NCBI GenBank assembly: GCA_913052485.1
Contig: CAJXDN010000003.1
Coordinates: forward strand, 4,602 to 68,601
Direction: 5' to 3'
Length of the DNA stretch: 64,000 nt
From: an uncultured Flammeovirgaceae bacterium
GTDB taxonomy: Bacteria; Bacteroidota; Bacteroidia; Cytophagales; MED-G16
Shown: in pieces, positions 1 through 16,788 of the stretch
How positions within the stretch are numbered: position 1 is the first letter of the stretch
Layout of the letters: the number at the start of each line of letters is the position of its first letter
Made by a program: the position numbers and the translations under genes
Notes under the pieces: generated by a model
The model's database searches: none
The model's input: the letters and a program-made list of their open reading frames with translations, nothing else
Told to the model about the DNA's origin: nothing

Positions 1-1229
<1,229 letters not shown>

Positions 1230-1298
1230 TCAATTATCAAATTATGGAATATTATCAAATTAATTTTCTTATAATTTTTTTAAATATTTCTGTAACAA

Positions 1299-1306
1299 TA
1301 TATTTG
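1299..1306 (+). promoter_or_regulatory. Bacteroidetes-type -7 promoter motif (TATATTTG) for tRNA-Glu
   Basis: TATATTTG matches TAnnTTTG and sits 12 nt upstream of the mature tRNA 5' end. Confidence 0.45.
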
Positions 1307-1318
1307 CACATCTAATAT

Positions 1319-1390
1319 GGTCCCTTCGTCTAGGGGTTAGGACGCCAGGTTTTCATCCTGGAAACAGGGGTTCGATTCCCCTAGGGACTA
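1319..1390 (+). tRNA. tRNA-Glu (anticodon TTC)
   Basis: The sequence folds by hand into a cloverleaf. The 7-bp acceptor stem is GGTCCCT/AGGGACT, the anticodon stem is CCAGG/CCTGG with loop TTTTCAT, and the T arm contains GGTTCGATTCC. No encoded CCA. Confidence 0.95.
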
Positions 1391-1398
1391 CAACTTAT

Positions 1399-1426
1399 AA
1401 ACCCATCTTATAGATGGGTTTTTTTT
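1399..1426 (+). terminator. rho-independent terminator hairpin after tRNA-Glu
   Basis: AAACCCATC-loop-GATGGGTTT followed by a T run. Confidence 0.6.
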
Positions 1427-1449
1427 AATATTTTAAATTATATTAAAAG

Positions 1450-2949
1450 ATGTTTAATTTTTTTAAAAGATTTTACCTTGTATTTTTCTTTTTTGTTAAT
1501 TTTCAATGCAATACAATTGATAATGATGCAGATCCAACTTTAACATTAGAGTTAACTCAATTAAATTTTGAATCACCTAGTAATTTGTTGTATCCAAATT
1601 TTATAGGTAACACTTATCATTATGGTTTAAGTTTTGATAATGACTCATTATTATATATTAATGCTCAGTCTAAAAATAATTCTACTGAAATTTATATAAA
1701 TAACATCTTTATAGGTTATGGATCAATAAATTATGAACTAGAATTAAAAAATCCTAATGATAATATTATAATTGAATTAAAAAATAAAGGTAATTCACTC
1801 AAATCTTATTTACATAAAATTTATGATAATTATCCAAAAGTTGACTTAGTAAAAAGTTCTAATTTAGTTGATGATGGTTTTATAATATTAAGCCCTAGAT
1901 ATCAAATTGATAATGAATATAAAACTTCTTTAATGATCATAGATAACAATGGTATTCTTAGATATAAAAAAATTATAGAAGGAAATGCTGTAGACTTCAA
2001 AAGACACTCTAATGGACAATATTCATATGCTTTACGTGAAGGTAAAAATGATTTTAATCATTGGACGAGTGAAATTATTATTCTAAATCAATTTTTTGAA
2101 GAAGAAAATAGACTAAAATGTATTAATTTAAATCATACAGATCCCCACGATTTTCTAATAACTGAAGAGGGTAATTATATATTATTATCTTATCATACAA
2201 ATTTTAGGGATTTTTCTGAATGGGGTTATTCTGAAAATGAACCAGTTAGAGAATCCTATATTCAAGAAATTTCAAAAGATGGAAATATTATTTTTGAATG
2301 GAATTCTTGGGATAATATTGACATAAATGGTTGTTTAAATCATAGATTTCCTGATGATTATTCACACATAAATTCAATTCAAGTTGCTCCTGATGGTAAT
2401 TTAATTGCTTCTTTTAGAGGTTGTTCTTCAATTCTTAAAATAAATAGATTAAGTGGTAAAACTATATGGAGTGTAGGAGGAGCAAATCCAAGTTTAAATA
2501 TCGAAGGTGATTTCTATGAAGAATTTTGTGGGCAACACACTGCATCTGAAAGCCATGATGGATACATTTATATTTTTGATAATGGTGGTCATTGTAATGG
2601 TGAAAGAGAAGATAAATTTGGTTCATTTAGCCGTGCTTTACAATATAAACTAGATATTGAAAATAACAGATTAGATTTTATTAGAGATTATTCATTTAAA
2701 AATGAATATAATAAATATACATCCTCTGGAGGATCTTTTTTTACAACCAGAAATGGAAATTGGTTAATTAATTGGAGTAGAAATATTCATACAATAACTG
2801 AAGTGTCTAATGAAAATAAAATTGAAATGGAATTTAATTTATTATTGAATAATGATACTCTTAGCTCTTATAGAGCTTATAGAATATATGATATTGAACT
2901 TCCTTTATTAATTAATGGAAATCTTACTTTCGAAAAATTTAGTAATTAA
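1450..2949 (+). CDS. aryl-sulfotransferase-like (ASST family) beta-propeller lipoprotein
   Basis: Signal peptide ending NFQC (lipobox-like). Segments HDFLITEEGNYILLSYH, SHINSIQVAPDGNLIASFRGCSSILKINRLSGKTIWSVGG and QHTASESHDGYIYIFDNG resemble PAPS-independent arylsulfate sulfotransferases. Confidence 0.6.
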   Translation: MFNFFKRFYLVFFFFVNFQCNTIDNDADPTLTLELTQLNFESPSNLLYPNFIGNTYHYGLSFDNDSLLYINAQSKNNSTEIYINNIFIGYGSINYELELKNPNDNIIIELKNKGNSLKSYLHKIYDNYPKVDLVKSSNLVDDGFIILSPRYQIDNEYKTSLMIIDNNGILRYKKIIEGNAVDFKRHSNGQYSYALREGKNDFNHWTSEIIILNQFFEEENRLKCINLNHTDPHDFLITEEGNYILLSYHTNFRDFSEWGYSENEPVRESYIQEISKDGNIIFEWNSWDNIDINGCLNHRFPDDYSHINSIQVAPDGNLIASFRGCSSILKINRLSGKTIWSVGGANPSLNIEGDFYEEFCGQHTASESHDGYIYIFDNGGHCNGEREDKFGSFSRALQYKLDIENNRLDFIRDYSFKNEYNKYTSSGGSFFTTRNGNWLINWSRNIHTITEVSNENKIEMEFNLLLNNDTLSSYRAYRIYDIELPLLINGNLTFEKFSN

Positions 2950-3010
2950 TATTATATAAGTAAAAAAGGATATCAGGTAGTTTTGAATGTGAGAAATTTA
3001 AGAGATTTAG

Positions 3011-3031
3011 GGTTCGATTCCCCTAGGGACT
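3011..3031 (+). repeat. orphan copy of the tRNA-Glu 3' end (T arm plus 3' acceptor strand), a direct repeat of 1369-1389
   Basis: GGTTCGATTCCCCTAGGGACT is identical at both sites. Imperfect similarity continues into the downstream hairpin. Confidence 0.9.
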
Positions 3032-3040
3032 GCAACCTTT

Positions 3041-3067
3041 AAAACCCATCAATTGATGGGTTTTTTT
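3041..3067. terminator. bidirectional hairpin terminator between the ASST-like gene and the convergent ABM-like gene
   Basis: Perfect palindrome AAAACCCATC-AATT-GATGGGTTTT with flanking T run. The stop codon of the minus-strand gene lies in the T run. Confidence 0.6.
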
Positions 3068-3473
3068 AATACCTTGTATAACCTCCAATACTTGAACGGA
3101 AGTCTAACTCAAGGCCATGATCTTTTATGTAAGATCTCAGTTCATCTGAGACATCTCCTAAGTATATTATGCTCTCGAATGTATAGATATTTGAGAAATT
3201 TCCAAACTCCTCTTGAAGATCTCCCCCCTCAGCTAATATTCTGCTGAGATGATTTTTGAAAGCGTTTTCATCACTATACCTCTCATAAAGTGTTACCTTT
3301 TTCTCATCTTTAGAGATCAAAAACCTCCAGGAAATTGTATTCTCCTCAGTTTCAGATATAAGTTTAGCATAACTATCACTCCAGTCCCTTGTGTCAATTG
3401 TCCTGTTGTCATTCACAGATAGTTCACAAATTATTATAACCTCTTTATTTTGTTTATCATTTATTGTTTCCAT
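3066..3473 (-). CDS. hypothetical protein, ABM-like (dimeric alpha/beta barrel) domain
   Basis: The pattern VIIICELSVN...ISWRFLISKDEKKVTLYERYSDENAFKNHL resembles antibiotic-biosynthesis-monooxygenase-type domains. Confidence 0.4.
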   Translation of the reverse strand: METINDKQNKEVIIICELSVNDNRTIDTRDWSDSYAKLISETEENTISWRFLISKDEKKVTLYERYSDENAFKNHLSRILAEGGDLQEEFGNFSNIYTFESIIYLGDVSDELRSYIKDHGLELDFRSSIGGYTRY

Positions 3474-3550
3474 ACTTAAAATTTATTCATAGTTATCTCT
3501 AAAAAATATTACTATGTTCATTAAATTATTTAAGGATTTATAAGTGAATT

Positions 3551-4054
3551 TTAATTTTGAGACTCTAAATATCTTACTATCTCGCCACCATACCATGTAG
3601 GATCTATAATTCCTCCGGTTGCAATAATTTTTCCGCCTTTCCACTCCCAGTTCCCATAGTATTGTATATTTTTAGATTCACCCGTTATTTTAGATTTTCC
3701 ATACCAGGTTAGCCAATGGTTAGTAAATATTCTACCATTATTGTAGTACATGGTAGTAATTGTAAGGTTGTTTTGTTGTATATCATCAAAAATTTCTTGG
3801 TCTCTTTTATATGCTGCAATCCACTCATCCTTCCCGTACTCAACTCCATTTACTGTATTTACTGCATCATCAGCCATGTACTCTGCCGTTATCTCAAAGT
3901 TACCATCAACATACGCTTTTGACAATTTTCTTATTATTTTACTTTCCTCACTATTCTCATTTATTGTACCTGACCAATTTCCATTATCCACAACAACACC
4001 TTGATTACATGAGATTAGTAAAGTTGTTAGGGTAACAATCAATAATTTTTTCAT
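3551..4054 (-). CDS. NTF2/SnoaL-like lipoprotein (paralog of 9970-10479)
   Basis: Lipobox LLISC. Shares the C-terminal block YYNNGxxxTNxWxTxxGKxKxTGxxxxxxxxxxWxWxGxKI with the 9970-10479 ORF. Confidence 0.5.
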   Translation of the reverse strand: MKKLLIVTLTTLLISCNQGVVVDNGNWSGTINENSEESKIIRKLSKAYVDGNFEITAEYMADDAVNTVNGVEYGKDEWIAAYKRDQEIFDDIQQNNLTITTMYYNNGRIFTNHWLTWYGKSKITGESKNIQYYGNWEWKGGKIIATGGIIDPTWYGGEIVRYLESQN

Positions 4055-4233
4055 TTTTTTACTTTTTAAGTTTTACATAAAAATTTTACAATAATTATAA
4101 TACGATATATTAAAATAAGAATTTTTTCATAAAATGATTTATTAAAATCATGAATTTTTAGATGTAAAATTTAATTTTTCTAAAATTCTATAAATAATAC
4201 CCTTGAAAATTTTTCATTGATTTTTTATGTCAG

Positions 4234-4283
4234 TGTCAACTTATTAATTCAAATTTTCTGTCAATGTATCATTAATTCAAAAT
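4234..4283 (+). promoter_or_regulatory. two imperfect direct repeats (TGTCAA-N3/6-ATTAATTCAAA) upstream of the YceI-like gene, candidate operator
   Basis: TGTCAACTTATTAATTCAAAT at 4234-4254 and TGTCAATGTATCATTAATTCAAAAT at 4259-4283. The second ends 18 nt before the ATG at 4301. Confidence 0.3.
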
Positions 4284-4300
4284 ATTCGTTATGAAGAATT

Positions 4301-4861
4301 ATGAAAAACATATTAATACTTTTTATTTTTTATTTATCTCCATCTATCATTCTTTCAAAAGAAAGCAATGTAGATGTTGAGAAGAGTTTTATAAAATGGA
4401 CAGGTAGAGAGATCACAACCAGTAATCATTTTGGAAAACTTAACATAAGTTCAGGTAACATTGAAGTAACTGAAAACGAAGTTATTGGTGAGGTTGTAGT
4501 TGATATGGAGTCTTTATTAGTTGAGGATTTGCAAGGAGAATGGGCAAGAAAGTTAGAAGGACATTTGAAATCAGACGATTTTTTTTCTGTTGAGAAGTTT
4601 AAAAAATCTACTTTAAAGACGACTTCTTCAAAAAGAAAATCAGATGGTCTTTATGAAGTTGATGGTGTATTGACAATAAAAGATATCTCACATCCTATTT
4701 CGTTCGATATAAATGTAAACGGTGATATTTTAAAAACTAATTTGACTTTTGATAGATCATTATATAACGTAAGATTTAGATCAGGTTCTTTTTTTGAGAA
4801 TCTTGGCGATAAGTTAATATTAGATGATATTGAACTAGAAGTTACGCTCCATTTAAATTAA
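4301..4861 (+). CDS. YceI-like domain protein (secreted)
   Basis: Signal peptide. FIKWTGREITTSNHFGKLNISSGNIEV, LEGHLKSDDFF and ISHPISFDINV match the YceI family pattern. Confidence 0.75.
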   Translation: MKNILILFIFYLSPSIILSKESNVDVEKSFIKWTGREITTSNHFGKLNISSGNIEVTENEVIGEVVVDMESLLVEDLQGEWARKLEGHLKSDDFFSVEKFKKSTLKTTSSKRKSDGLYEVDGVLTIKDISHPISFDINVNGDILKTNLTFDRSLYNVRFRSGSFFENLGDKLILDDIELEVTLHLN

Positions 4862-4929
4862 TCATTTAAATTATTATATAATTTAGAACTATTATAAATT
4901 AAAAAATTATCTGTTTTTAGCATAACTAA

Positions 4930-4937
4930 TAGTTTTG
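4930..4937 (+). promoter_or_regulatory. -7 promoter motif (TAGTTTTG) upstream of the CDGSH mini-ORF
   Basis: Matches TAnnTTTG, 36 nt upstream of the ATG at 4973. Confidence 0.35.
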
Positions 4938-4972
4938 TTACTCGTTGTATTGACTGAATTTAAATATTAAAA

Positions 4973-5068
4973 ATGAGTACTACATTTAAAAACAAACCGT
5001 TGTGTCAGTGCGGAAATACATCTGATGAAAATGGTCTCTGTGACGGGTCTCATTCCCGAAACAAATAA
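4973..5068 (+). CDS. 31-aa mini-protein with CDGSH iron-sulfur motif (below the ORF-track size cutoff)
   Basis: Translates to MSTTFKNKPLCQCGNTSDENGLCDGSHSRNK*. CxC-x9-CDGSH compares with the consensus CxCx2(S/T)x3PxCDG(S/A/T)H and has one extra residue. It has its own -7 motif upstream and a hairpin terminator downstream. Confidence 0.45.
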   Translation: MSTTFKNKPLCQCGNTSDENGLCDGSHSRNK

Positions 5069-5074
5069 ATAATT

Positions 5075-5098
5075 ATTACCCATCTTTTGATGGGTAAT
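5075..5098. terminator. bidirectional hairpin terminator
   Basis: ATTACCCATC-TTTT-GATGGGTAAT forms a 10-bp stem between convergent ORFs. Confidence 0.55.
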
Positions 5099-5365
5099 TT
5101 ATTTGTATTTACTATCAATCAGAGATCTAAGGTTCTTCAGTGATTTTATATAGTTTTCTAAACTCATTACTCTCAAGCCAATATGATAATTCCTATCTGA
5201 TAGTAAATTCTTAAGTCTTAAGTCCTGTAAATTATTATATACATACTCTCTAGAAATCATCTTATCTGATTTATTCCTTTTCTCTTCCGCCCAAGTCCAT
5301 ATTTTTTCATACTTCAAAACTATATGTTTTTTTAATAAATTATGAGAACCATTTATGACTACCAA
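5099..5365 (-). CDS. hypothetical protein (start uncertain: track start is TTG, first ATG gives 5099-5260)
   Basis: ORF only. Overlaps the upstream SRPBCC gene by 26 nt in another frame. Confidence 0.3.
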   Translation of the reverse strand: MVVINGSHNLLKKHIVLKYEKIWTWAEEKRNKSDKMISREYVYNNLQDLRLKNLLSDRNYHIGLRVMSLENYIKSLKNLRSLIDSKYK

Positions 5366-5834
5366 ACATATTTTTTTCTACTGGAATTCCTTTATCGAGA
5401 TAATATTTGATTCCAGTTAATACAGAATGTAGATAGCTTTCAAGCTTAGGAGTTACTACAATTTTATAGGGTAGATATGATATTATTTTTGGGTAGTTAT
5501 TTAGAAAATATGGGTAAACTGTAATAGAAAGACTTGTATTTTTTTTATGAGGGGTAATCTCCCATTTAACCATTGATTTTTGTTTATTTTCTTCACCTAT
5601 GAGAAGGGTGTATCCCTTATTTTCCTTCCAATTAATAAATTTTCTTATGTATATCAGTCCGTTTAAATACTCTAAAATGTCAGAATGGTTATCTTTTTCC
5701 CATTTTATAATTTTATTTTTTTTACAAAATGGATGACATTTATTTAGGTATCCAGGAGATGAAATAAAATTCCATATTGTTTCTTTACTTGCATTAATTG
5801 TGATAGAATTCTGAACTGAATTTTTATATTTCAT
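5340..5834 (-). CDS. SRPBCC (START/Bet v1-like) family protein
   Basis: The N-terminal ITINASKETIWNFISSPGYLNKCHPF pattern and the size are typical of SRPBCC ligand-binding proteins. Confidence 0.55.
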   Translation of the reverse strand: MKYKNSVQNSITINASKETIWNFISSPGYLNKCHPFCKKNKIIKWEKDNHSDILEYLNGLIYIRKFINWKENKGYTLLIGEENKQKSMVKWEITPHKKNTSLSITVYPYFLNNYPKIISYLPYKIVVTPKLESYLHSVLTGIKYYLDKGIPVEKNMFGSHKWFS

Positions 5835-5837
5835 AGT

Positions 5838-6248
5838 TTATCTACTTAAATAATTTGCTTTCTCCTCAGATATTTTTTTAAAGAATTTATGATCGGATTT
5901 ATTTTTGATTCTAATTTTTAAAAAAAATTCGTTAAAATTTATTGTGTAATGATCAGCATCTATTTTGAAGATAATTAACTTATAATATGGAATAGCTAGA
6001 CCAAAAGTTGATTGTTTTGATTTAAAGTATACCATGATACCCTTAGATCTAATTTCAATATTACAGTCATTCAAACTATATGATTTAGATAATAAATCAT
6101 AAATTTTATTATCTGCTTTCTTTATTAAAAGTTTTCTCGAACCTACACCTCTTCTCTTAATTTTATCTAATAAATCAAATTCTTTTCCTATAAGATTATT
6201 AATTTCCTTTTCAATTTTTAAATCTTTGTATGATAAATCCCTCAGCAT
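5838..6248 (-). CDS. hypothetical protein
   Basis: 136-aa ORF, 3 nt upstream of the SRPBCC gene. No motif recognised. Confidence 0.45.
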   Translation of the reverse strand: MLRDLSYKDLKIEKEINNLIGKEFDLLDKIKRRGVGSRKLLIKKADNKIYDLLSKSYSLNDCNIEIRSKGIMVYFKSKQSTFGLAIPYYKLIIFKIDADHYTINFNEFFLKIRIKNKSDHKFFKKISEEKANYLSR

Positions 6249-6254
6249 TAGTAG

Positions 6255-7022
6255 ATGAAACGATATAATTTAAAAAATGATTTAAAAATATTTCTAGATG
6301 AAATGTATGAGTTATATAATACAAAGGAATTTATAGACAAAGATCCTATTCAAATTCCCTATAGATTTTCTGAAAAAAAAGATATAGAAATCTCAGCATT
6401 TTTAACATCAATAATTTCATGGGGAAATAGAAAAATGATTATTAATAATGCTCACAGATTAATGGAAATAATGGATTATAGTCCATATAAATTTATAATA
6501 AATTCCAATGAAAAAGATTTTCATAAAATCTCATTTACTCATAGAACATTTAATGCCGAAGATTTAAAGTTTTTTTTTATTTCCCTGAAAAATATTTACT
6601 TAAATCATGGTGGTCTAGAGAAAGTATTTCACGTAAGCAGAAATGAGGATAAAGTTTTTAATGCAATAATTAGATTTAGAGATATTTTTTTTAGTATTAG
6701 TCATTTGCCAAGAACTCAAAAACATATCTCTAACCCCTTAAAAAAATCTTCATGCAAGAGAATAAATATGTTTCTCAGATGGATGGTTAGGGATTGTAAT
6801 GTAGACTTCGGACTTTGGAAAGGTATTCCTAAATCAAAGCTATCATGTCCTCTTGATACTCATACACTAAGGATTTCAAAAAAAATTGGGATAATTAACA
6901 GAGATAAAAATGATATGATTACTCTAAATGAGTTAGATACTGCATTAAGAAAATTTGACTCAATTGATCCAGTGAAATATGATTTTGCATTATTTGGATT
7001 AGGAGTTGAAAATGGATTTTAG
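6255..7022 (+). CDS. TIGR02757/DUF2400 family protein
   Basis: FLTSIISWGNRKMII, the RWMVR...DFGLW block and SCPLDTHTLRISKKIG resemble the Bacteroidetes-common TIGR02757 family. Confidence 0.65.
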   Translation: MKRYNLKNDLKIFLDEMYELYNTKEFIDKDPIQIPYRFSEKKDIEISAFLTSIISWGNRKMIINNAHRLMEIMDYSPYKFIINSNEKDFHKISFTHRTFNAEDLKFFFISLKNIYLNHGGLEKVFHVSRNEDKVFNAIIRFRDIFFSISHLPRTQKHISNPLKKSSCKRINMFLRWMVRDCNVDFGLWKGIPKSKLSCPLDTHTLRISKKIGIINRDKNDMITLNELDTALRKFDSIDPVKYDFALFGLGVENGF

Positions 7023-7657
7023 CCACCACCTCCATCGCCACCACCTCCACCAGCGTCCCCACCACCATATCCGCCTCCGTCTGCGGCATAAGCTCCGTAC
7101 ATGAAAGCATCTCCTCCAGAGCCGGATGATGTGTATCGATTTACTGTGATATTGTATCTATCTGTCATTGACAAAACGTCCTTTAACTCAAGATTTCTGA
7201 ATTTATAATCAACTAATTTCTTAGAATTTAAATCAATCCTAACGGCATTTTTTTTTGTAAAAGCAATGACTCTATCACCGTAAACAACAAGCTGAGGATA
7301 CACTGAAGAATACCACTTTTTATAGGGATATTTTTCCTCCATTATTATATTTCCAGACTCAATTTCCATTACCACTATATTGAATGATTTATCAACATAG
7401 AAAAGTTTATTATCCTTGGCAATGCAATTACTAAAAGCATTCAATTCCTTATCTCTCCAAAAAAGTTCTCCTGTCTCAATATTTATAAGAGATGTAAACA
7501 TTTTTGTCCATCCATTGAATGTGTAGAGGAATATATATTTATCAAGTCTGAAAGTACTTACAATCTTATTTTTGTCCTCAATAGTCCATTTAGTAGTGTT
7601 ATCTTTTGAGTTAATAAGAGAAATTTTATTTTTTTCTAGAACAATTACATAATACAT
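7019..7657 (-). CDS. hypothetical protein: beta-strand-rich body with C-terminal Gly/Asp-rich low-complexity tail
   Basis: 212-aa ORF without signal peptide. The C-terminus reads SSGSGGDAFMYGAYAADGGGYGGGDAGGGGGDGGGG*. It starts 1 nt after the upstream DUF885-like gene. Confidence 0.55.
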   Translation of the reverse strand: MYYVIVLEKNKISLINSKDNTTKWTIEDKNKIVSTFRLDKYIFLYTFNGWTKMFTSLINIETGELFWRDKELNAFSNCIAKDNKLFYVDKSFNIVVMEIESGNIIMEEKYPYKKWYSSVYPQLVVYGDRVIAFTKKNAVRIDLNSKKLVDYKFRNLELKDVLSMTDRYNITVNRYTSSGSGGDAFMYGAYAADGGGYGGGDAGGGGGDGGGG

Positions 7658-7658
7658 A

Positions 7659-9278
7659 TTAATCTATTTTATCTAACATCTCCCATCTCACTAAGCTTAC
7701 TGGTATGTTACCTGTATCGTTAAAATTTTTGAAAAATTCTTTTAGAGTAAATTCTTTATCTTCTTTATCTTCTTTCTCTGCATACTCTGCTAAAATTTTT
7801 TCTAACATGTATTTTCCAGTTATGTATGACGTCCCGTAACCAGGCTGTCTGAGATAAAGATGCTGCTCAAACTGAAGTAGGTGTGGTTCTCTATTCATCC
7901 ACCTTCTAGGTGTCCATTTCACATGTACTCCACCAGCTTCTTGCATTGTCATCTCATTTGCGTGAGCATAGAGTGATCCCAATCCCCTTGCTGCCCTCTG
8001 CGCAATCATTATCCAGACAATTTCTTTTGATCTGGGACTATCATTATAGAGACCAGCGTGCATAAACATTTCCTCAACTCCTGTGGCATAGCCCTCGTTT
8101 TTTGTATCGAATATGTTATAGAGTAGAGCTTTTCTTCGGATTGGGCTCTCATGAGGATTATCTCTTATTTCAGCAAGATCAAACCAATGTACAAAATGTG
8201 AGTAGAGTGGTAAGGGATCGAGGTGGAGTCCAATATTAAAGAAATTTCTCTCATCCTCCGGGACATATTTCCCCATATGTTCTCTTAGTGCAGGCTCCAT
8301 ATTTTCCTTAAATGGCATGATACCCTTATCCTTTATAAATGTAATAAATCTTCTTACTCCCTCTTCTGTTAAGTTTTTAAAGTCCTTTTCAGTATTTGCA
8401 GGTATAAGTTCTGGTAAGTCTCTATTTTTATGCTCCTCAAGCTTTAGAGATGACCACGCTCTGTCTAGCTCTCTTTGTAATAATCTGACCTCATCTTCCC
8501 ACGTCATTGGAAGAAGATGTACATTTTTTTGGTACCAAGTATAATTTTCTTTTCCGATTCCTGAAGGTCCAGTCTTATTTTTTGACTCTTTCTCAAGCCA
8601 AGTAATAAAACTCTTAGTTGAACTTATGGCTCTATCTATTTCCACATTAATTTTATTATCTTCTTTAAGGTTGAGGGTTCTTCTTATATATATTAAATTA
8701 TCTATTTGATCTCTAAAATTTTGGATTCCAGCATCCCACAATTCCTTGGCATTTCCTATCAAGTTTTTTTTTGCCTGATCCAGAAAAGGGGTAATAGATT
8801 TTAATTCTTTTAGTATTCTATTCTCTGAATCTTTATCAAGAGGAATTTCATACATCCAGAATTCAAGTACTCCATGATTTGTTGGCCCCTCATGAGCTGG
8901 CACATCACTCTGATACATCCATATTGTCTGGTAAAATGCGGGGTCTCTCTCCCAAGGTTTAAGAACTCTGTAATTAAAATCGTAGCCATTCATTTCAGCC
9001 TTTACTATGTACCAATCTATTTGTTTGTTAATGGGCCATTCGTCTATATAAAAAGAGTTTAATCTTTCTCTTAACTCTATAAACTTATTTTGGTCGTTAT
9101 CAAATCTCTCCTTAGTATAATCTGGGGTACCATCTAGTAGGGGAGGATTCTCAAAGTTTCTCCAATCAGTGAACAGTTGAATTAAATCATCATAGTTTAA
9201 ACTTTTATTTTTAGGTGTGTTTTCATCTCTAGTTGTTGAGCAACTAATAAATATTAATAGTAAAAGTAATTTTTTCAT
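7659..9278 (-). CDS. DUF885-like lipoprotein
   Basis: Lipobox IFISC. The C-terminal YLRQPGYGTSYITGKYMLEKI block resembles the DUF885 RYxxxPGQAxxYxxG motif. Confidence 0.5.
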   Translation of the reverse strand: MKKLLLLLIFISCSTTRDENTPKNKSLNYDDLIQLFTDWRNFENPPLLDGTPDYTKERFDNDQNKFIELRERLNSFYIDEWPINKQIDWYIVKAEMNGYDFNYRVLKPWERDPAFYQTIWMYQSDVPAHEGPTNHGVLEFWMYEIPLDKDSENRILKELKSITPFLDQAKKNLIGNAKELWDAGIQNFRDQIDNLIYIRRTLNLKEDNKINVEIDRAISSTKSFITWLEKESKNKTGPSGIGKENYTWYQKNVHLLPMTWEDEVRLLQRELDRAWSSLKLEEHKNRDLPELIPANTEKDFKNLTEEGVRRFITFIKDKGIMPFKENMEPALREHMGKYVPEDERNFFNIGLHLDPLPLYSHFVHWFDLAEIRDNPHESPIRRKALLYNIFDTKNEGYATGVEEMFMHAGLYNDSPRSKEIVWIMIAQRAARGLGSLYAHANEMTMQEAGGVHVKWTPRRWMNREPHLLQFEQHLYLRQPGYGTSYITGKYMLEKILAEYAEKEDKEDKEFTLKEFFKNFNDTGNIPVSLVRWEMLDKID

Positions 9279-9336
9279 CCATTAAACTTAATCAAACTCT
9301 CTTTATACATACTAATTATTTGTTTTAATTTGTGGA

Positions 9337-9981
9337 ATGAGGATATCTCATAAATATAAATTTATTTTTTTTTGTAATCCTAAGACAGGTTCTGATAGTT
9401 TCAGACAAATGTTAGAGCCCTATTCAGATATAATTGTAAAGAATAATTTTTTAAATAAAAGTGAAAAATTTCCATTTTACACCCACATGTCTCCAGTTGA
9501 GACGAGGAATGTTTTTTCTGAATTAGGTTGGGATTATGAAAGTTATCATAAAATAATATGCACTAGGAATCCATTTGATAAATTAGTTTCACTATATGAG
9601 ATGATATACAAAAACTATCCAAGAGTATTAATGCCATCATTCAAGAAATGGTTAACATTGACAAAAGTTAATAAAGAGGGTGGTGGTGGAAATGACTATC
9701 GGAGGTGGAGGAAATATGGAACATATTCTCTCGAAAATTTAATTTATGATGATAAAATGAAAATTTTGGTTGATCAGATAATAAAGTTAGAGGATATAGA
9801 AAATGATGTCCCAGAACTGTTTTCAAAGCTTAGTCTACCCAAAATAAAAAAAATTGTAAAAAAAAATGTAGGTAAAAAGTATAAAAAAACCCAAGAATAT
9901 TACGATGAAGAACTAGTTTCTCTTGTTCAGCAAAGATATTCTTGGGAGATCAATAAATTTAATTATAAACTATTGAGATAA
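9337..9981 (+). CDS. PAPS-type sulfotransferase family protein (cytoplasmic)
   Basis: FFCNPKTGSDSF looks like a 5'-phosphosulfate-binding loop and TRNPFDKLVSLY like a 3'-phosphate-binding motif, as in Sulfotransfer_2-type enzymes. Confidence 0.6.
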   Translation: MRISHKYKFIFFCNPKTGSDSFRQMLEPYSDIIVKNNFLNKSEKFPFYTHMSPVETRNVFSELGWDYESYHKIICTRNPFDKLVSLYEMIYKNYPRVLMPSFKKWLTLTKVNKEGGGGNDYRRWRKYGTYSLENLIYDDKMKILVDQIIKLEDIENDVPELFSKLSLPKIKKIVKKNVGKKYKKTQEYYDEELVSLVQQRYSWEINKFNYKLLR

Positions 9982-10479
9982 ATTACTTTTTGCCTCATTT
10001 TCAGTATCAAAGACATCAGTGCTAAAGAATTGCACCTCTTCAACTATTTTATCACCTTCCCATAAGTAGGATATGTGAAAAGGAAAACTTACTTCATTTC
10101 CAGTATATTTTCCTTTACCTTCAAATGTGCTCCAGATATTTGTCCATACCTGACCATTCGCATAATAAGTAGTTTCTACTGCAAGACCATCATAGTCAGA
10201 ATACTCAGAATCTTCAAATTCAACATCATCAAACATATCAAATAAGTTTTCTACTCCAGCAATAAATTCATCTTTGTTTAATACTGTCCCATGTGGATCT
10301 GTAAATTTCAAATCTTTAGAAAATATTTCCTTTAAAAATCCAATATCTTCATCCTCAACTGCCTCAAATAGTTCTACAATATTTTTGCTTTTTTCATCGT
10401 CAATGCTTACATATCCAAAATTATTTTTTGGTGCATCACAACTTATTAAAAAGATTGTGATCATTAATAAATACCTCAT
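9970..10479 (-). CDS. NTF2/SnoaL-like lipoprotein (paralog of 3551-4054)
   Basis: Lipobox FLISC. Shares a conserved C-terminal block with the 3551-4054 ORF. Confidence 0.5.
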   Translation of the reverse strand: MRYLLMITIFLISCDAPKNNFGYVSIDDEKSKNIVELFEAVEDEDIGFLKEIFSKDLKFTDPHGTVLNKDEFIAGVENLFDMFDDVEFEDSEYSDYDGLAVETTYYANGQVWTNIWSTFEGKGKYTGNEVSFPFHISYLWEGDKIVEEVQFFSTDVFDTENEAKSNLSQ

Positions 10480-10551
10480 ATTTTTTTTATTTAATTATTA
10501 TCTATTTTAAATTCATTTAACATAAAACGAATCTGTTTATTATTTAAACTT

Positions 10552-11565
10552 ATGAAAAATTCATGTTTTTTTCTGCTATCAATATTTTTTTTATCGTGTA
10601 AACAGGATAAAAATATTCAAAATAATGAATTAGATACCTTAGGTATGGTACTTATCAGTGGGTCAAATTTTTTTATGGGAAGTGATGACGAAGACGCAAA
10701 CCCCGACGAATTCCCTATTCACGAAGTGAAAGTGAATTCATTCTGGATGGATGTGACAGAGGTGACTAATGCACAATTTCAAAAATTTGTTGATGAAACA
10801 GGATATATTACTACATCTGAGTTAGCACTTGACTGGGAAGAAATAAAGAAAGATTTTCCTCCAAATACGCCTAAGCCCGATTCCGAACTTCTTGCACCCT
10901 CATCAATCGTTTTTAAAAAAAATGATAATGTTTCAAGTCTTAAAAATCATATGTTGTGGTGGGAGTTAGTACCCGGTGCAAATTGGAGGAAACCAGGAGG
11001 TGAAGGGACATCAATCGATGGCAAAGAAAATCATCCGGTTGTCCACGTGAGTTGGTTTGACGCAGTCGCTTATGCGGAGTGGAGGGGAGGTAGATTACCA
11101 ACTGAGGCTGAGTGGGAGTATGCATCGAGAGGAGGCCTTGTTAGTAAAAAATATAGTTGGGGAGATGACATAAATTTGAGTTCTTTCGCAAACACGTGGG
11201 AAGGCGAATTTCCAAAGTCAAATACTAAAATTGACGGTTTTGAATCTACCTCTCCTGTTAAAAATTACCCAGCAAATAACTTTGGTTTATATGATATGTC
11301 TGGAAATGTTTGGGAATGGTGTTCAGATCTCTATAATTATGACTACTACAAGACAGTTTCAAATATCATCTCAGATAACCCTAGTGGTCCCAACAAAAGT
11401 TTTGATCCTCAAGAGCCCTATGCTTTGAAGAGAGTTGTTCGAGGAGGTAGTTTCCTATGTAATAAGTCTTACTGTAAAGGATATAGAAACTCAATGAGGA
11501 TGAAAAATACCCCAGATACAGGCTCCTCACATATTGGTTTTAGGGTAGTAAAGGATATAATTTAG
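10552..11565 (+). CDS. formylglycine-generating enzyme (FGE/SUMF1 family)
   Basis: HEVKVNSFWMDVTEVTNAQFQKFV, HPVVHVSWFDAVAYAEWRGGRLPTEAEWEYASRGG, YDMSGNVWEWCSD and RGGSFLC. Confidence 0.9.
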   Translation: MKNSCFFLLSIFFLSCKQDKNIQNNELDTLGMVLISGSNFFMGSDDEDANPDEFPIHEVKVNSFWMDVTEVTNAQFQKFVDETGYITTSELALDWEEIKKDFPPNTPKPDSELLAPSSIVFKKNDNVSSLKNHMLWWELVPGANWRKPGGEGTSIDGKENHPVVHVSWFDAVAYAEWRGGRLPTEAEWEYASRGGLVSKKYSWGDDINLSSFANTWEGEFPKSNTKIDGFESTSPVKNYPANNFGLYDMSGNVWEWCSDLYNYDYYKTVSNIISDNPSGPNKSFDPQEPYALKRVVRGGSFLCNKSYCKGYRNSMRMKNTPDTGSSHIGFRVVKDII

Positions 11566-11569
11566 TATT

Positions 11570-13090
11570 ATGAGAAAACTTTTTATTTTTTTTTGTTTTT
11601 TCTTCTTAAACCTTACTATTTATTCTCAAGATAAAAGTCAAATAATTGATGACTTTGCAAGAAAGGGAAAGGAGCTGTGGCAAATTCCCGGGATGAGTTT
11701 AGTTATAGTTGAAAATGATTCTACAATTTTCAAGAGTACATATGGAGTCAAAAATTATTTTACCAGAGATGAAGTTGACACCAAAACAATATTCTCTATG
11801 GCCTCTACGACCAAGGCATTTATAGGAATGGGATTAGGTATACTTGTAGACAGAGACTCAATAGGGTGGAATGATAAAGTAGTAGATCATTTACCTGATT
11901 TCAAATTATCAGATCCATATATTACAAATGATGCAAGAGTAAAAGACCTCTTAACTCACAACCTTGGGATAGGAAATGAAGATAAGCTATGGACTACTGA
12001 TAGTACTTCAGTAGAGGAACTTCTATCCAATTTTTCAAAGTCTGAGAGAAAGTACTCTCTGAGGGGGGGCTATACATATCAGAACATAATGTACGTTGTT
12101 GCCGGAAGACTAATTGAGAAGGTTTCTGGTAAGACATGGCAAGAATTCATACAATATAATATTTTGGAACCTATTGGTCTTGAATGTACGTTGACATGGT
12201 CTAGAGATATTTTTGAGTATGGTAATCATACCTACCCGCACATGATTGATTATGAGGAAGGCATAGTAAATGTACCGTTTACAATATCTGACCAGATTGG
12301 TGCTGCTGGGATGATGTGGTCCTGTGTTGATGATATGGAAAAATATTTATCCTTTCTGCTAAATAACAGCGAAGTTGATGGTTTAAGAATTTTATCTGAA
12401 AAAACATTTAACTATATCTTCGAGCCTCAAATTATTATTGGAAGTTCATTTTATCCTACATCTAAACTCACAAAACCGAATTGGAGAACATATGGACTGG
12501 GTTGGTTTCAGCACGACTATAGAGGTCTAAAGATAGATATGCATACCGGTAGCTTACAAGGTCTAGTTGCCATAATAGCAATGGTAAGGGATAAAAATAT
12601 AGCTCTTCAAGTTTTTGCAAATATGGACGGGGCAGAGTTAAGACATGCTCTAGTATATAAAATTTTTGATCTGCTTCTTTTTGATGATAACTCAAGAGAT
12701 TGGAACTCAGAGGTATTCGAATTATACAATGAAAGAAGTGAGAGATATAAAAAATCATATTTTGAATCATTTGAGAATAGAGATAAATCAAAAAAGCTAT
12801 CCTATGAACTAAAAGATTTTGTAGGAAAATTTTCCAATGATATGTACGGTGATATAGCTGTTACCCTCCGAACAAGAGAATGGAAAAAATCTAAAAAAAA
12901 ATATTATCTAAATCTTGATGTAAATAACAACATAAAAAATTTTGATTTAGAATGGTGGGAGGGTAATACATTTCTAACTGATAAAGATGAGAAGTGGTTA
13001 GAAAAGTTATTTGTAGATTTTAAAGAGGAGGATGGTTCGATAAAAAGCTTAAAAATTTATAATGTTCAATTTGATAAAGTCAGCAACTAA
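11570..13090 (+). CDS. serine hydrolase, beta-lactamase/transpeptidase-like family
   Basis: Signal peptide and SxxK motif (FSMASTTKAF). Starts 4 nt after the FGE gene. Confidence 0.8.
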   Translation: MRKLFIFFCFFFLNLTIYSQDKSQIIDDFARKGKELWQIPGMSLVIVENDSTIFKSTYGVKNYFTRDEVDTKTIFSMASTTKAFIGMGLGILVDRDSIGWNDKVVDHLPDFKLSDPYITNDARVKDLLTHNLGIGNEDKLWTTDSTSVEELLSNFSKSERKYSLRGGYTYQNIMYVVAGRLIEKVSGKTWQEFIQYNILEPIGLECTLTWSRDIFEYGNHTYPHMIDYEEGIVNVPFTISDQIGAAGMMWSCVDDMEKYLSFLLNNSEVDGLRILSEKTFNYIFEPQIIIGSSFYPTSKLTKPNWRTYGLGWFQHDYRGLKIDMHTGSLQGLVAIIAMVRDKNIALQVFANMDGAELRHALVYKIFDLLLFDDNSRDWNSEVFELYNERSERYKKSYFESFENRDKSKKLSYELKDFVGKFSNDMYGDIAVTLRTREWKKSKKKYYLNLDVNNNIKNFDLEWWEGNTFLTDKDEKWLEKLFVDFKEEDGSIKSLKIYNVQFDKVSN

Positions 13091-14642
13091 TTTTTTTACT
13101 GTATTATTATTCATTTCTTGTGCTCCACAAAAAAATGATAAAAAAAATATTATAATCATTTTAGCTGACGATTTAGGATATAGTGATTTAGGATATTTCG
13201 GCAGTGAGATTAGCACACCAAATATTGATGATCTTGCAGGAAAAGGGGTAGTTTTCACAAATTTTTATTCGGCTCCGTCTTGTGCTCCGTCTAGAGCTAT
13301 GTTATTATCTGGTAATGATAACCATATGGCTGGTATAGGGATTCAGGCATTTCGTTCTGGAAATTATGGGTACGAAGGTTCCTTGTCTGAGAGAGTAAAA
13401 ATTATTCCAGAGGTACTAAAAGAAAATGGATATAACACATTTATGTCAGGAAAATGGCATATTGGAGGAGATCCTTTTGACAGAGGTTTTGATAAAACAT
13501 TTTCACTTCTTCCAGGTGCTTTCACACACTATGATAATATTAAGCCTATCAGAGGATACCCAGATACAGCATTCTCTCTAAATGGGAAGAAAGTTTTGTG
13601 GGAAGAGGGTAAATATTCTACTGATGTATACACGGATAAGTTAATAGAGTTCATAGAATCATCAGATGATAAGCCATTTTTTGGATATTTGTGTTATACT
13701 GCACCACACTGGCCATTACAAGTAGATAAAATTTACTCAGATAAATACGAGGGTGTCTATGATGGTGGATATGAAATTATTAAAGAGAGAAGACTTAATA
13801 GTATGATTAAAAAAGGAATATTAAAAGAAGGTTCTAATTATCAATCAAAATCATATTCATCAAATTGGAATAATTTAAGCTCATCTGAAAAGGCAATTGA
13901 GTCTAAAAAAATGGAAATTTATGCAGGAATGATTTCAAACTTAGATTTTAATGTTGGTAGATTAACATCTTTTCTGGAGAGTAAGGAGATACTAGAAAAT
14001 ACAGTAATTATATTTATGTCTGATAATGGAGCGGCTGCAGAGGACTTCTATTTCAATAAGACATATGGTGGTTATCTTAAAGAAAAATTCACCTACGATT
14101 ATGAAGAGATGGGATCGCCTAAGTCATTTATATCAATCGGTAAAAACTGGGCTGAAGTAATTACAAATCCATTTAAGTTATATAAAGGTTTTACAACTTC
14201 TGGGGGAATGAGGTCTCCAATAATATTTTATGGAATAGATAATATTGAAAGTGATATCTATGATGAGTTTATTTCAGTACTAGATGTTGCTCCTACTCTT
14301 TACTCCTTAACTAAATCCGATTCTGAAATTAGCGTAACAGGAGAAAGTATTATTCCATTCCTCATGAAAAATCAGAGTTATACTCATGATGAAAATTATG
14401 TTTTTGCATTTGAACATAGTGGTAGCTCAATTTTAATTAAAGACAAATGGAAAATTGTAAATAATTCTTTTCCTTTCAATAAAGATAATTTTGAACTTTA
14501 CCAATTATCTGATATTTCTGAAGTTAATAACCTAAAAAATGAACAAAATGAGGTATACAATTCTTTAATTAATGACTGGGAATCATTTGTGATGGAAAAT
14601 AGGATAATATTACCGACCCCTTACAGAGATGATCTCAATTAA
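13062..14642 (+). CDS. arylsulfatase (Cys-type, formylglycine-dependent)
   Basis: IIIILADDLGYSDLGYFG and the sulfatase signature SCAPSRAMLLSG (CxPxR). Overlaps the upstream gene by 29 nt. Confidence 0.9.
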   Translation: MFNLIKSATNFFTVLLFISCAPQKNDKKNIIIILADDLGYSDLGYFGSEISTPNIDDLAGKGVVFTNFYSAPSCAPSRAMLLSGNDNHMAGIGIQAFRSGNYGYEGSLSERVKIIPEVLKENGYNTFMSGKWHIGGDPFDRGFDKTFSLLPGAFTHYDNIKPIRGYPDTAFSLNGKKVLWEEGKYSTDVYTDKLIEFIESSDDKPFFGYLCYTAPHWPLQVDKIYSDKYEGVYDGGYEIIKERRLNSMIKKGILKEGSNYQSKSYSSNWNNLSSSEKAIESKKMEIYAGMISNLDFNVGRLTSFLESKEILENTVIIFMSDNGAAAEDFYFNKTYGGYLKEKFTYDYEEMGSPKSFISIGKNWAEVITNPFKLYKGFTTSGGMRSPIIFYGIDNIESDIYDEFISVLDVAPTLYSLTKSDSEISVTGESIIPFLMKNQSYTHDENYVFAFEHSGSSILIKDKWKIVNNSFPFNKDNFELYQLSDISEVNNLKNEQNEVYNSLINDWESFVMENRIILPTPYRDDLN

Positions 14643-14643
14643 A

Positions 14644-15315: not shown

Positions 15316-15392
15316 GGTATATTTATATAATAATATTTAAATTAAGACGTATTTATATATAAATATAGATCATTTATTAAAAAAATAAATTT

Positions 15393-16780: not shown

Positions 16781-16788
16781 TATTTTAA

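What the first reader, a model, noticed from the sequence alone, without database searches (positions are those of the whole stretch)
1319..3067. tRNA-Glu 3' end duplicated as a direct repeat bracketing a single cargo gene, with no integrase
The last 21 nt of tRNA-Glu (GGTTCGATTCCCCTAGGGACT, 1369-1389) recur identically at 3011-3031. Imperfect similarity then continues through the downstream spacer and hairpin terminator (1391-1426 versus 3033-3067). The two copies are in direct orientation and enclose exactly one gene, the 499-aa aryl-sulfotransferase-like lipoprotein at 1450-2949. A duplicated tRNA 3' end is the classic attL/attR scar left by tyrosine-recombinase-mediated insertion into a tRNA gene. 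Here the insert is only about 1.6 kb and carries no integrase, excisionase or other mobility gene, and none is present anywhere in the window. Three explanations fit: a decayed island reduced to its cargo, a cassette mobilised in trans, or an ectopic duplication of the tRNA-terminator module.
Basis: partly seen in the sequence, partly recalled or inferred. Interest (0 to 1): 0.6.

Follow-up and report, generated by a model that had tools for sequence, protein, structure and literature searches.

The report
Integrase-less gene cassette inserted into tRNA-Glu
A 1.6-kb single-gene cassette carrying an aryl-sulfotransferase-like gene has been inserted into the end of a tRNA-Glu gene in some strains of an uncultured marine Bacteroidota lineage, leaving the usual duplicated tRNA end; this is a clean but ordinary case of how tRNA-linked genomic islands grow.

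Summary
An exact 22-nt repeat (1368-1389 and 3010-3031) is followed by an about 83% similar trailer and terminator hairpin, and it brackets one ASST-like gene. No recombinase is encoded anywhere in the window.

Comparative data show an insertion polymorphism:
- 31 related marine contigs have the empty site, with tRNA-Glu followed directly by the ABM-like gene and a single copy of the repeat.
- In filled sites, the distal copy carries the trailer seen at empty sites. The tRNA-proximal trailer, including an A73 discriminator, came in with the insert.
- The same cassette (95% identical) sits at tRNA-Glu in a background whose neighbouring gene is only 57% identical.
- A different two-gene cargo occupies the same site in another contig and shares the same ~40-nt right arm.
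- In a sister lineage the ABM-like gene is itself bracketed by an older, decayed copy (17/21).

The locus is therefore a small array that grows at the tRNA. The repeat starts in the T-stem. Uncultured phages carry the same 21-mer next to tyrosine integrase genes.

My best reading is site-specific insertion of a non-autonomous cassette, comparable to a CIME, a tycheposon remnant or an additive-island cassette, with the integrase supplied in trans or since lost. This is a new member of a known kind, of moderate interest.

The parts
1319..1390 (+). tRNA-Glu (anticodon UUC). It is intact, and position 1390 is the discriminator base: A73 here, G73 at empty sites.
   Evidence: ARAGORN; Rfam RF00005, 63 bits; empty-site sequences.
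1368..1389 (+). Copy A of the 22-nt core (attL-like). It runs from the T-stem 5' strand (about G51) through the T-loop to acceptor position 72, inside the functional tRNA.
1390..1426 (+). Left arm of the cassette (P'-like): A73, a CAAC trailer, and an intrinsic terminator hairpin (stem-loop 1399-1421) with a U-run. It arrived with the insert and now terminates the tRNA.
   Evidence: It differs from the trailer at empty sites, whereas copy B's trailer matches that trailer. Fold -12.4 kcal/mol. Terminator scan.
1450..2949 (+). The cargo: a 499-aa aryl-sulfotransferase (ASST)-like ORF. Its GC3 is 10.2% against a window gene mean of 22.8% (z = -3.0).
   Evidence: Pfam PF14269 and PF05935; composition; homologues.
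2972..3009 (+). Right arm of the cassette (P-like): ATCAGGT..TTTTGAATG..AATTT..AAGAGATTTAG. A cassette with unrelated cargo (L145) shares it. Its last 8-12 nt also occur at the older copy beyond the ABM-like gene in sister-lineage contigs.
3010..3031 (+). Copy B of the 22-nt core (attR-like): the displaced original 3' end of tRNA-Glu. It is not part of any tRNA.
   Evidence: No tRNA call here by ARAGORN or Rfam.
3032..3067 (+). Native trailer (G73 + CAACC...) and terminator hairpin, as found directly after tRNA-Glu at empty sites. It overlaps the 3' end of the convergent ABM-like gene.
3066..3473 (-). ABM-like 135-aa gene that marks the right flank. In the sister lineage (89% nt-identical ABM-like gene) it is itself bracketed by the tRNA core and a decayed third copy, so it appears to be an older cassette in the same array.
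5075..5098 (+). Third ACCCATC..GATGGGT hairpin, without a tRNA core, following a 31-aa CDGSH-like mini-ORF (4973-5068). In L170 this module sits directly after tRNA-Glu, so it is possibly another shuffled island module.

Best explanation
A non-autonomous 1,642-bp cassette was inserted into the T-loop region of chromosomal tRNA-Glu. The cassette consists of a left arm (A73, trailer and terminator hairpin), the ASST-like gene, and a ~40-nt right arm ending in AGATTTAG. I infer that the insertion was a site-specific, tyrosine-integrase-type crossover within the 22-nt core. The incoming DNA supplied a new 3' end, discriminator base and terminator for the tRNA (attL). The original 3' end, with its native trailer and terminator, was pushed 1.6 kb downstream (attR). 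The recombinase is not encoded in the cassette or in the window. It either acted in trans, from a phage or another element, or was lost. Repeated events of this kind at the same tRNA have built a small array in which the newest cassette lies next to the tRNA and older att copies decay distally. Shown here: the insertion polymorphism, the native identity of the distal trailer, horizontal sharing of the cassette, the shared arm, the array, and the absence of an integrase. Inferred: that an integrase made the crossover, and whether it acted in trans.
For: 1. Empty sites. 31 contigs have tRNA-Glu followed 49-51 nt later by the ABM-like gene, with one core copy. The nearest of them (L089) is 98.7% identical to window 3010-9478.
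2. Filled sites in independent assemblies and samples. L104, L109 and L110 carry the window-type cassette, 99.9% identical. L105-L108 carry a variant.
3. Polarity. Copy B is followed by the trailer seen at empty sites. In L145 that trailer is identical to the trailer of its cognate empty sites L084, L085 and L087. Copy A is followed by a different trailer that starts with A73 instead of G73.
4. Horizontal sharing. The L105-type cassette is 94.9% nt and 95% aa identical to the window's. It sits in a background that lacks the ABM-like and SnoaL-like genes, and the adjacent YceI-like gene is only 57% aa and 72% nt identical. ASST GC3 is a -3.0 sd outlier.
5. Different cargo, same ends. L145 holds a 2.9-kb insert with a 321-aa DUF5655-like ORF and a 555-aa ORF, and no ASST gene or integrase. 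It lies between the same two repeats and shares the right arm.
6. Accretion. In L081, L150-L155 and L157-L169 the ABM-like gene is followed by ...GAGAAGATTTAG|GGTTTGATTCTGCTATGGACT plus trailer and hairpin. This core is 17/21 identical and varies between contigs. Copy B, by contrast, is 21/21 in three backgrounds while the adjacent arms and trailers are 80-90% identical.
7. The identity block starts in the T-stem 5' strand and ends at position 72. From my own knowledge, this is the T-loop sublocation class of tRNA att sites (Williams 2002, cited in 10.1101/2020.12.28.424599); I did not read that paper here.
8. About 13 IMG/VR viral contigs carry only this partial tRNA-Glu end, with the same 21-mer, next to ~400-aa PF00589 tyrosine integrase genes. 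Integrases that target this core therefore exist.
9. [quoted passage not shown]
Against: No integrase is present in the window, in any cassette variant, or in the up to 19-kb related loci examined. No excised-circle (attP) junction was found in the JGI metagenome collection. No cassette-type arm was found in IMG/VR. The cassette's left arm is homologous to the native tRNA trailer and hairpin, unlike the phage attP arms, which are unrelated to it. This is also what one would expect if chromosomal DNA from a relative had been moved by homologous recombination. The phages carrying this attP core have unknown hosts; their integrases are at most 33% identical to those of any catalogued phage. Only three or four cassette types were sampled.
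Confidence: 0.6

Rival explanations
1. No site-specific recombinase was involved. Either the cassette is chromosomal DNA from a relative in which the ASST gene lies natively downstream of tRNA-Glu, or one ancient event created the duplicated module. The cassette then spreads to empty sites by RecA-type double crossover, using the tRNA gene as the left homology arm and the duplicated core-trailer-hairpin (about 58 nt) as the right arm.
For: In L099-L103 a 65%-identical ASST homologue lies directly after tRNA-Glu, in the same GAPDH-tRNA synteny, with no exact second copy of the core. This is a donor-like arrangement. Trailer A is homologous to native trailers of other sublineages. The filled structure offers homology to any empty site on both sides. 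No integrase and no circle junction were found.
Against: The boundary of identity is sharp and falls at the same T-stem position in cassettes with different cargo (ASST, L145, ABM-like), always preceded by AGATTTAG. The right arms show no significant similarity to the 5' part of the tRNA (p = 0.05-0.73), so copy B is not a decayed whole tRNA. In L145 the whole copy-B trailer is that of its cognate empty sites, which places the crossover inside the 21-mer. A right homology arm of 22-58 nt is very short for RecA.
Confidence: 0.2
2. The filled state is ancestral. The duplicated module and its cargo were present in the common ancestor, and the many empty sites arose by repeated precise deletion between the direct repeats.
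For: Direct repeats of 22-58 nt promote precise deletion, and deletion would leave exactly the single-copy sites observed. The arms of the window and L145 cassettes differ about as much as their ABM-like genes do.
Against: None of the 31 informative contigs retrieved through the ABM-like gene is filled, across sublineages whose ABM-like genes are 88-97% nt identical to the window's. Copy B is 21/21 in three backgrounds while neighbouring non-coding sequence has diverged by 10-20% and the older copy C has decayed to 17/21. This points to recent origin, not long residence. The ASST cassette is 95% identical between backgrounds whose flanking gene is 57% aa identical. ASST GC3 is an outlier.
Confidence: 0.08
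3. The repeat is an assembly artefact, or a generic dispersed terminator element that happens to resemble a tRNA end.
For: The window itself shows a jump in phylogenetic affinity exactly at the tRNA, which could be an assembly chimera. The hairpin alone recurs at 5075-5098.
Against: The same tRNA-cassette-copy B structure appears in at least 9 contigs from different samples and assemblers, drawn from Tara, JGI, Logan and NCBI. The 21-mer occurs only twice in 64 kb. All hairpin copies lie within this one island, between positions 1 and 5.1 kb.
Confidence: 0.02

Closest known systems
Additive flexible genomic island cassettes at tRNA hotspots (Alteromonas; Lopez-Perez and Rodriguez-Valera 2016, PMC4898812)
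   Same: Both have a hotspot at a tRNA gene, strain-variable cassettes, a partial-tRNA direct repeat downstream of the inserted cassette, and near-identical cassettes in diverged genomic backgrounds.
   Different: This case is in a streamlined, uncultured marine Cytophagales-like lineage. The cassettes are very small (0.5-2.9 kb, one or two genes). They share a conserved arm and hairpin around the core, a feature not described for Alteromonas in the text I read.
[quoted passage not shown]
   Same: It is flanked by attL/attR-like repeats at the 3' end of a tRNA gene, carries no integrase or transfer genes, and lies in tandem with another att-bounded unit (accretion).
   Different: There is no evidence of descent from an ICE or IME, since no remnants of conjugation or integration genes are present. 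Cis-mobilisation by an adjacent ICE cannot be tested here. The cassette is far smaller than described CIMEs.
Tycheposons and their degenerate remnants in Prochlorococcus islands (Hackl et al., bioRxiv 10.1101/2020.12.28.424599)
   Same: Both are in a streamlined marine bacterium. Both involve integration at a specific tRNA, partial tRNAs separating neighbouring units, newcomers pushing older units distally, cargo relevant to the niche, and degenerate units without an integrase.
   Different: The hallmark genes (tycheposon-clade tyrosine recombinase, primase/helicase module) are absent from every unit seen here. tRNA-Glu is not among the seven Prochlorococcus target tRNAs. The phylum is different.
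Integron gene cassettes
   Same: Both have single-gene units that lack an integrase, are arrayed with the newest next to the attachment site, and have a conserved recombination module that includes an imperfectly conserved hairpin at the cassette boundary.
   Different: There is no intI next to the attachment site. The attachment site is a tRNA T-arm. Arms resembling attC were not demonstrated. Cassettes occur in both orientations.
Temperate phage attP sites in tRNA-Glu (IMG/VR contigs L114, L128, L115, L122, L130 and others)
   Same: They carry the same 21-nt core, and the partial tRNA copy starts near the T-stem. They also supply their own downstream terminator, as the cassette does.
   Different: In the phages an integrase gene lies adjacent to the site. 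Their arms (ACCA plus an unrelated hairpin) share nothing with the cassette arms, and their hosts are unknown.

Membership tests
tRNA-targeted integrative element / islet bounded by attL and attR | The 3' part of the tRNA gene is repeated in direct orientation at the distal end, with an intact tRNA at the proximal end. | tested here: met
   22-nt exact repeat at 1368-1389 and 3010-3031. The tRNA is intact.
tRNA-targeted integrative element / islet bounded by attL and attR | An unoccupied attB exists in relatives: a single copy, with the flanks joined precisely. | tested here: met
   31 empty-site contigs. The distal trailer matches the trailer at empty sites.
tRNA-targeted integrative element / islet bounded by attL and attR | The element encodes its own integrase (tyrosine or serine recombinase). 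| tested here: not met
   The cassette holds a single ASST-like ORF. There is no PF00589 or other recombinase hit among window ORFs of at least 100 aa. L145 and the related loci also lack one.
tRNA-targeted integrative element / islet bounded by attL and attR | The identity block begins at a canonical sublocation (anticodon loop or T-loop) and runs to the tRNA 3' end. | tested here: met
   The block runs from about G51/G52 (T-stem 5' strand) to position 72 in the window, L105 and L145. The classification itself is from memory of Williams 2002 and was not read here.
tRNA-targeted integrative element / islet bounded by attL and attR | An excised circular form or attP junction is detectable. | tested here: inconclusive
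   An exact-pattern scan for the predicted junction in JGI metagenome contigs gave 0 hits. Assembled contigs are a weak test; raw reads were not available.
CIME (cis-mobilizable element) | It retains attL and attR but lacks integration and transfer genes. | tested here: met
CIME (cis-mobilizable element) | It derives from an ICE or IME by decay and can be mobilised in cis after accretion with a functional element. | not testable with these tools
   No ICE/IME gene remnants were seen. Testing this needs complete genomes and mating or excision assays.
Tycheposon | It carries the hallmark tyrosine recombinase of the tycheposon clade plus a replication module (primase/helicase). | tested here: not met
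   None was found in any cassette or in the window.
Tycheposon | It integrates at an island-seeding tRNA, with partial tRNAs between units and accretion away from the tRNA. | tested here: met
   Copies A, B and a decayed copy C lie in order from the tRNA.
Additive flexible genomic island cassette | The locus is a hotspot with different cassettes in different strains, and the same cassette occurs in diverged backgrounds. | tested here: met
   The site is occupied by ASST, by the L145 two-gene cargo, or is empty. The ASST cassette is 95% identical in backgrounds whose flanking gene is 57% identical.
Integron | An intI integrase gene and an attI site lie adjacent to the array, and cassettes end in attC sites. 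| tested here: not met
   The gene on the other side of the tRNA is GAPDH. There is no integrase in 64 kb. attC structure was not tested.
Aryl-sulfotransferase (ASST) family, for the cargo gene | The protein matches Pfam PF05935 or PF14269 above the gathering threshold over most of the domain. | tested here: met
   73.3 and 72.3 bits against cut-offs of 27 and 24.2; profile coverage 56-298/301 and 8-374/374. Catalytic activity was not tested.

The most novel reading that the evidence does not exclude
The tRNA-Glu locus of this marine lineage is the docking site of a dedicated cassette system that is mobilised in trans. In this reading, small promoter-poor units of one or two genes carry no recombinase. 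Each bears a conserved ~100-nt attachment module: an AGATTTAG arm, a mimic of the tRNA T-arm and acceptor end, and an ACCCATC/GATGGGT hairpin that also serves as the tRNA terminator. A recombinase encoded elsewhere captures and stacks the units next to the tRNA. This would be functionally analogous to an integron, but anchored in a tRNA gene.
Probability: 0.2. Interest if true: 0.65.

Novelty: new member of a known kind. Interest (0 to 1): 0.4.

Why it matters
This is a compact, fully resolved natural example of how a flexible island grows at a tRNA gene in a streamlined, uncultured marine bacterium. Empty alleles, filled alleles, alleles filled with a different cargo and older decayed alleles can all be found in public metagenomes. 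It shows that a niche-related gene, an aryl-sulfotransferase-like enzyme lying beside other sulfatase and sulfotransferase genes, moves between diverged lineages as a 1.6-kb unit without its own recombinase. If the shared arms prove to be a functional attachment module, the locus would offer a tractable test of trans-mobilised cassette capture outside integrons. A practical point also follows: the insertion changes the discriminator base and the terminator of what may be the cell's tRNA-Glu gene.

Tried and rejected
- Exact-protein look-ups of the window ASST and of P0001 found nothing on record. Cluster members P0209-P0211 had to be used instead.
- The predicted excised-circle (attP) junction pattern gave 0 hits in metagenome contigs.
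- IMG/VR scans for the native trailer and for the AGATTTAG-plus-core arm returned only unrelated coding sequences and other tRNAs.
- I tested whether the right arm is the decayed 5' part of a duplicated tRNA-Glu. Local alignment against shuffles was not significant (p = 0.05, 0.34, 0.26, 0.73), and Rfam and ARAGORN see no tRNA at copy B. I rejected the idea.
- A possible decayed T-arm (AAAAATCGAATCC) about 150 nt downstream of the ASST gene in L099 was not detected by the nhmmer profile of the att module. I treat it as unsupported.
- A tRNA-like fold of arm plus copy B was not supported. The fold is dominated by the terminator hairpin (z = -2.3).
- I tried to assign hosts to the phages carrying the attP core through their integrases. 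The best matches were only 25-33% identical, to Firmicutes, Fusobacterium and mycobacterial phages, which is uninformative.
- The idea of a genome-wide dispersed terminator element was rejected. All three hairpins lie within the first 5.1 kb of the window, and the core occurs only twice.
Full report
**1. Observation**

ARAGORN and Rfam place a tRNA-Glu(UUC) at 1319-1390/1391. Its last 22 nt before the discriminator base, GGGTTCGATTCCCCTAGGGACT (1368-1389), recur exactly at 3010-3031. With up to 3 mismatches allowed, the 21-mer has only these two matches in the 64-kb window, against 0.00 expected from shuffles.

Ungapped similarity continues for 58 nt in all (83%). It runs through a trailer and a hairpin followed by a U-run. 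Both hairpins fold well (-12.4 and -13.0 kcal/mol, z about -4.3). The copies are direct and 1,642 bp apart.

Between the copies lies a single ORF, 1450-2949 (499 aa). It matches both Pfam ASST families well above their thresholds. I scanned every window ORF of at least 100 aa against Pfam and found no integrase, recombinase, excisionase or transposase.

**2. Empty sites**

The gene to the right of the insert, ABM-like (3066-3473, minus strand), has many relatives at 86-97% amino-acid identity in marine metagenomes. One of them is named 'Flammeovirgaceae bacterium TMED290'. GAPDH relatives are named Cytophagales. The organism is therefore probably a marine Cytophagales-like Bacteroidota, not Flavobacteriales.

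I looked up contigs that encode four of these ABM-like proteins. In 31 of them tRNA-Glu is followed 49-51 nt later by the ABM-like gene, with a single copy of the core and no ASST gene. The closest empty contig, L089, is 98.7% identical to window 3010-9478.

At these empty sites the tRNA is followed by G73, CAACCTTTAAAACCCATC, a loop, GATGGG and a T-run. That is the trailer found after copy B in the window. In the window the tRNA itself is followed by A73, CAACTTATAAACCCATC..., which must have arrived with the insert. This is the polarity expected of attL and attR.

**3. Filled sites elsewhere**

The ASST protein belongs to a small 90% cluster. Contigs for the cluster members, from Tara, JGI, Logan and NCBI assemblies, show the same tRNA-cassette-copy B structure.

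- L104, L109 and L110 carry the window-type cassette. L104 is 99.94% identical to window 1319-10948.
- L105-L108 carry a variant that is 94.9% nt and 95% aa identical. It has the same architecture and a 21-nt exact repeat.
- In L105 copy B is followed directly by a YceI-like gene that is only 57% aa and 72% nt identical to the window's. The ABM-like and SnoaL-like genes are absent.

The cassette is therefore shared horizontally between diverged backgrounds and occupies the same site in each. In keeping with a foreign origin, the ASST gene has a GC3 of 10.2% against a window gene mean of 22.8 +/- 4.2%. More distant ASST homologues (65% aa) occur in two contexts. In L099-L103 the gene lies directly after tRNA-Glu in the same GAPDH-tRNA synteny, with no exact second core. 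In L097 and L098 it lies in an unrelated context.

**4. A different cargo with the same ends, and an older copy**

I scanned metagenome contigs for partial tRNA-Glu ends preceded by AT-rich sequence. The scan returned L145. On this contig a 2.9-kb insert lies between tRNA-Glu and copy B, and it holds a 321-aa DUF5655-like ORF and a 555-aa ORF of unknown family. It has no ASST gene and no integrase.

The right end of the L145 insert is ATCAGGTTTTTTGAATGAATGTAATTTGAAAGATTTAG|GGTTCG. It is homologous to the right end of the ASST cassette (window 2972-3009). Its copy-B trailer is identical to the tRNA trailer of its cognate empty sites L084, L085 and L087.

In the sister lineage (ABM-like gene 89% nt identical; L081, L150-L155, L157-L169), blastn and an nhmmer profile of the module found a further copy on the far side of the ABM-like gene. 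It reads ...GAGAAGATTTAG|GGTTTGATTCTGCTATGGACT + GTAACATTTAAAACCCATC..GATGGG + T-run. The core is 17/21 identical and varies between contigs. There the ABM-like gene is itself a cassette bracketed by tRNA-end repeats.

The locus is therefore an array that grows at the tRNA. The youngest att copy (B) is perfect in three backgrounds, although the adjacent arms and trailers are only 80-90% identical. The older copy (C) is decaying.

**5. Mechanism**

The identity block starts in the T-stem 5' strand (about G51/G52) and ends at position 72. As I recall from Williams 2002, which is cited in the tycheposon preprint but which I did not read here, this is the T-loop class of tRNA attachment sites.

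A scan of IMG/VR for the 21-mer found 24 contigs. About 13 of them have no tRNA but only this partial end. In the loci long enough to examine, it lies next to a ~400-aa ORF. The five such ORFs that I scanned are PF00589 tyrosine integrases. Integrases that use this exact core therefore exist, although the hosts of these phages are unknown.

I infer that the cassette entered by a site-specific crossover in the core. The incoming arm supplied a new discriminator base and terminator to the tRNA. Because every unit seen lacks a recombinase, the enzyme either acted in trans or was lost.

**6. What argues against this, and the rivals**

- No integrase was found in any related locus, and no attP circle junction in assembled metagenomes. 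No cassette-type arm was found in IMG/VR.
- The cassette's left arm is homologous to native trailers. Under serial accretion this is expected, because every 'native' trailer is then the left arm of the previous cassette. It is equally expected if chromosomal DNA from a relative were moved by homologous recombination, with the tRNA and the duplicated 58-nt module as homology arms.
- I cannot exclude that such recombination accounts for the spread, or even the origin. The sharp junction at the same position, always preceded by AGATTTAG in cassettes with different cargo, makes an origin that was purely illegitimate or homologous less likely. So does the lack of significant similarity between the right arms and the tRNA 5' part.
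- 'Ancestral presence with repeated deletion' is disfavoured. None of the 31 contigs retrieved through the ABM-like gene is filled, copy B is perfectly preserved, and the cassette is 95% identical across 57%-identical backgrounds.
- An assembly artefact is excluded by at least 9 independent contigs.

**7. Comparison with what is known**

The structure matches three published descriptions:
- CIMEs, which retain attL and attR but have lost their integration genes (PMC5704250);
- the tycheposon model, in which partial tRNAs separate units, newcomers push older ones distally, and degenerate units accumulate (10.1101/2020.12.28.424599).

It is not a tycheposon or an integron by their hallmark genes, because those were tested and are absent. 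It is best filed as a new member of the known kind 'integrase-less att-bounded cassette in a tRNA-seeded additive island'.

The only feature that might go further is the conserved module of arm, core and hairpin shared by unrelated cargos. It could indicate a dedicated cassette system mobilised in trans. I put the probability of that at about 0.2.

**8. Caveat about the window**

Left of the tRNA (GAPDH side), the window is 87% identical to L170 and only 74.7% to L089. Right of the tRNA it is 98.7-99.9% identical to L089 and L104, and 67-83% to L170. L104 and L109, which carry the same filled allele, have an L089-like sequence upstream of the tRNA. The window contig is therefore either a true recombinant with a breakpoint in the tRNA or an assembly chimera at the 72-nt tRNA. 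This does not affect the finding, which independent contigs reproduce.

Noticed in passing
window 8-1430 versus 3010-10948: Phylogenetic affinity jumps exactly at tRNA-Glu. The GAPDH flank is 87% nt identical to L170 and 74.7% to L089. The right flank is 98.7% identical to L089, 99.94% to L104, and only 67-83% to L170. Either an island of at least 9.6 kb was transferred with a crossover in the tRNA, or the contig is an assembly chimera at the 72-nt tRNA.
   Followed up: partly
window 1390: In window-type filled alleles (window, L104, L109, L110) the tRNA-Glu discriminator base is A73. At all empty sites and in the L105-type cassette it is G73. The insertion therefore changes a base of the mature tRNA as well as its terminator.
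   Followed up: partly
window 4973-5098; L170 8581-8700: A 31-aa Cys-rich mini-ORF (CQCGNTSDENGLCDGSH; weak zf-CDGSH match, E = 0.005) is followed by a third ACCCATC..GATGGGT hairpin. In L170 the homologous mini-ORF and hairpin sit directly after tRNA-Glu, which suggests that modules are shuffled within the island.
   Followed up: partly
L081 5888-5958; L150 6891-6958; L152 4289-4353; L160 3328-3398, among others: A decayed third copy of the arm, tRNA-Glu core (17/21), trailer and hairpin lies on the far side of the ABM-like gene in the sister lineage. That makes the ABM-like gene an older single-gene cassette. The window lineage lacks this copy.
   Followed up: yes
L145 (MDTA01117503.1) 338-3254: Alternative cargo occupies the same tRNA-Glu site: a 321-aa DUF5655 / weak HSDR_N-like ORF and a 555-aa ORF with no Pfam match. 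It may be defence- or restriction-related. No PADLOC search was run.
   Followed up: partly
IMG/VR loci L111, L114, L115, L118-L120, L122, L126, L128, L130-L132: Uncultured low-GC (28-37%) viral contigs carry a partial tRNA-Glu 3' end with the same 21-mer. In the loci long enough to show flanking genes it lies beside a ~400-aa ORF, and the five ORFs scanned are tyrosine integrases. There are at least two attP families, each with its own downstream terminator. Hosts are unknown.
   Followed up: partly
window 9337-18891: A cluster of genes for sulfate esters and glycans lies downstream of the tRNA-Glu island: Sulfotransfer_2 (9337-9981), FGE-sulfatase (10552-11565), a beta-lactamase-like gene (11570-13090), a sulfatase (13062-14642) and GH97 (16789-18891). 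The ASST cargo fits this theme.
   Followed up: no
window 20592-21362: Two adjacent short ORFs (122 and 129 aa) each consist only of a TonB-dependent-receptor Plug domain. They lie upstream of an 814-aa ORF with a weak YfhO match. They may be a broken or unusual receptor.
   Followed up: no
L099-L103 (for example L100 332-1906): In another lineage a 65%-identical ASST homologue starts only 15 nt after tRNA-Glu, with no terminator between them, and is followed by a methyltransferase gene. There is no exact second copy of the core. This may be an old, streamlined version of the same insertion or the donor-type arrangement.
   Followed up: partly
L144, L146, L149, L140 (metagenome contigs): Other organisms (GC 31-46%) have partial tRNA-Glu copies that begin at the anticodon stem (CAGGTTCTCATCC...). 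These are att sites of the anticodon-loop class on a related tRNA-Glu.
   Followed up: no
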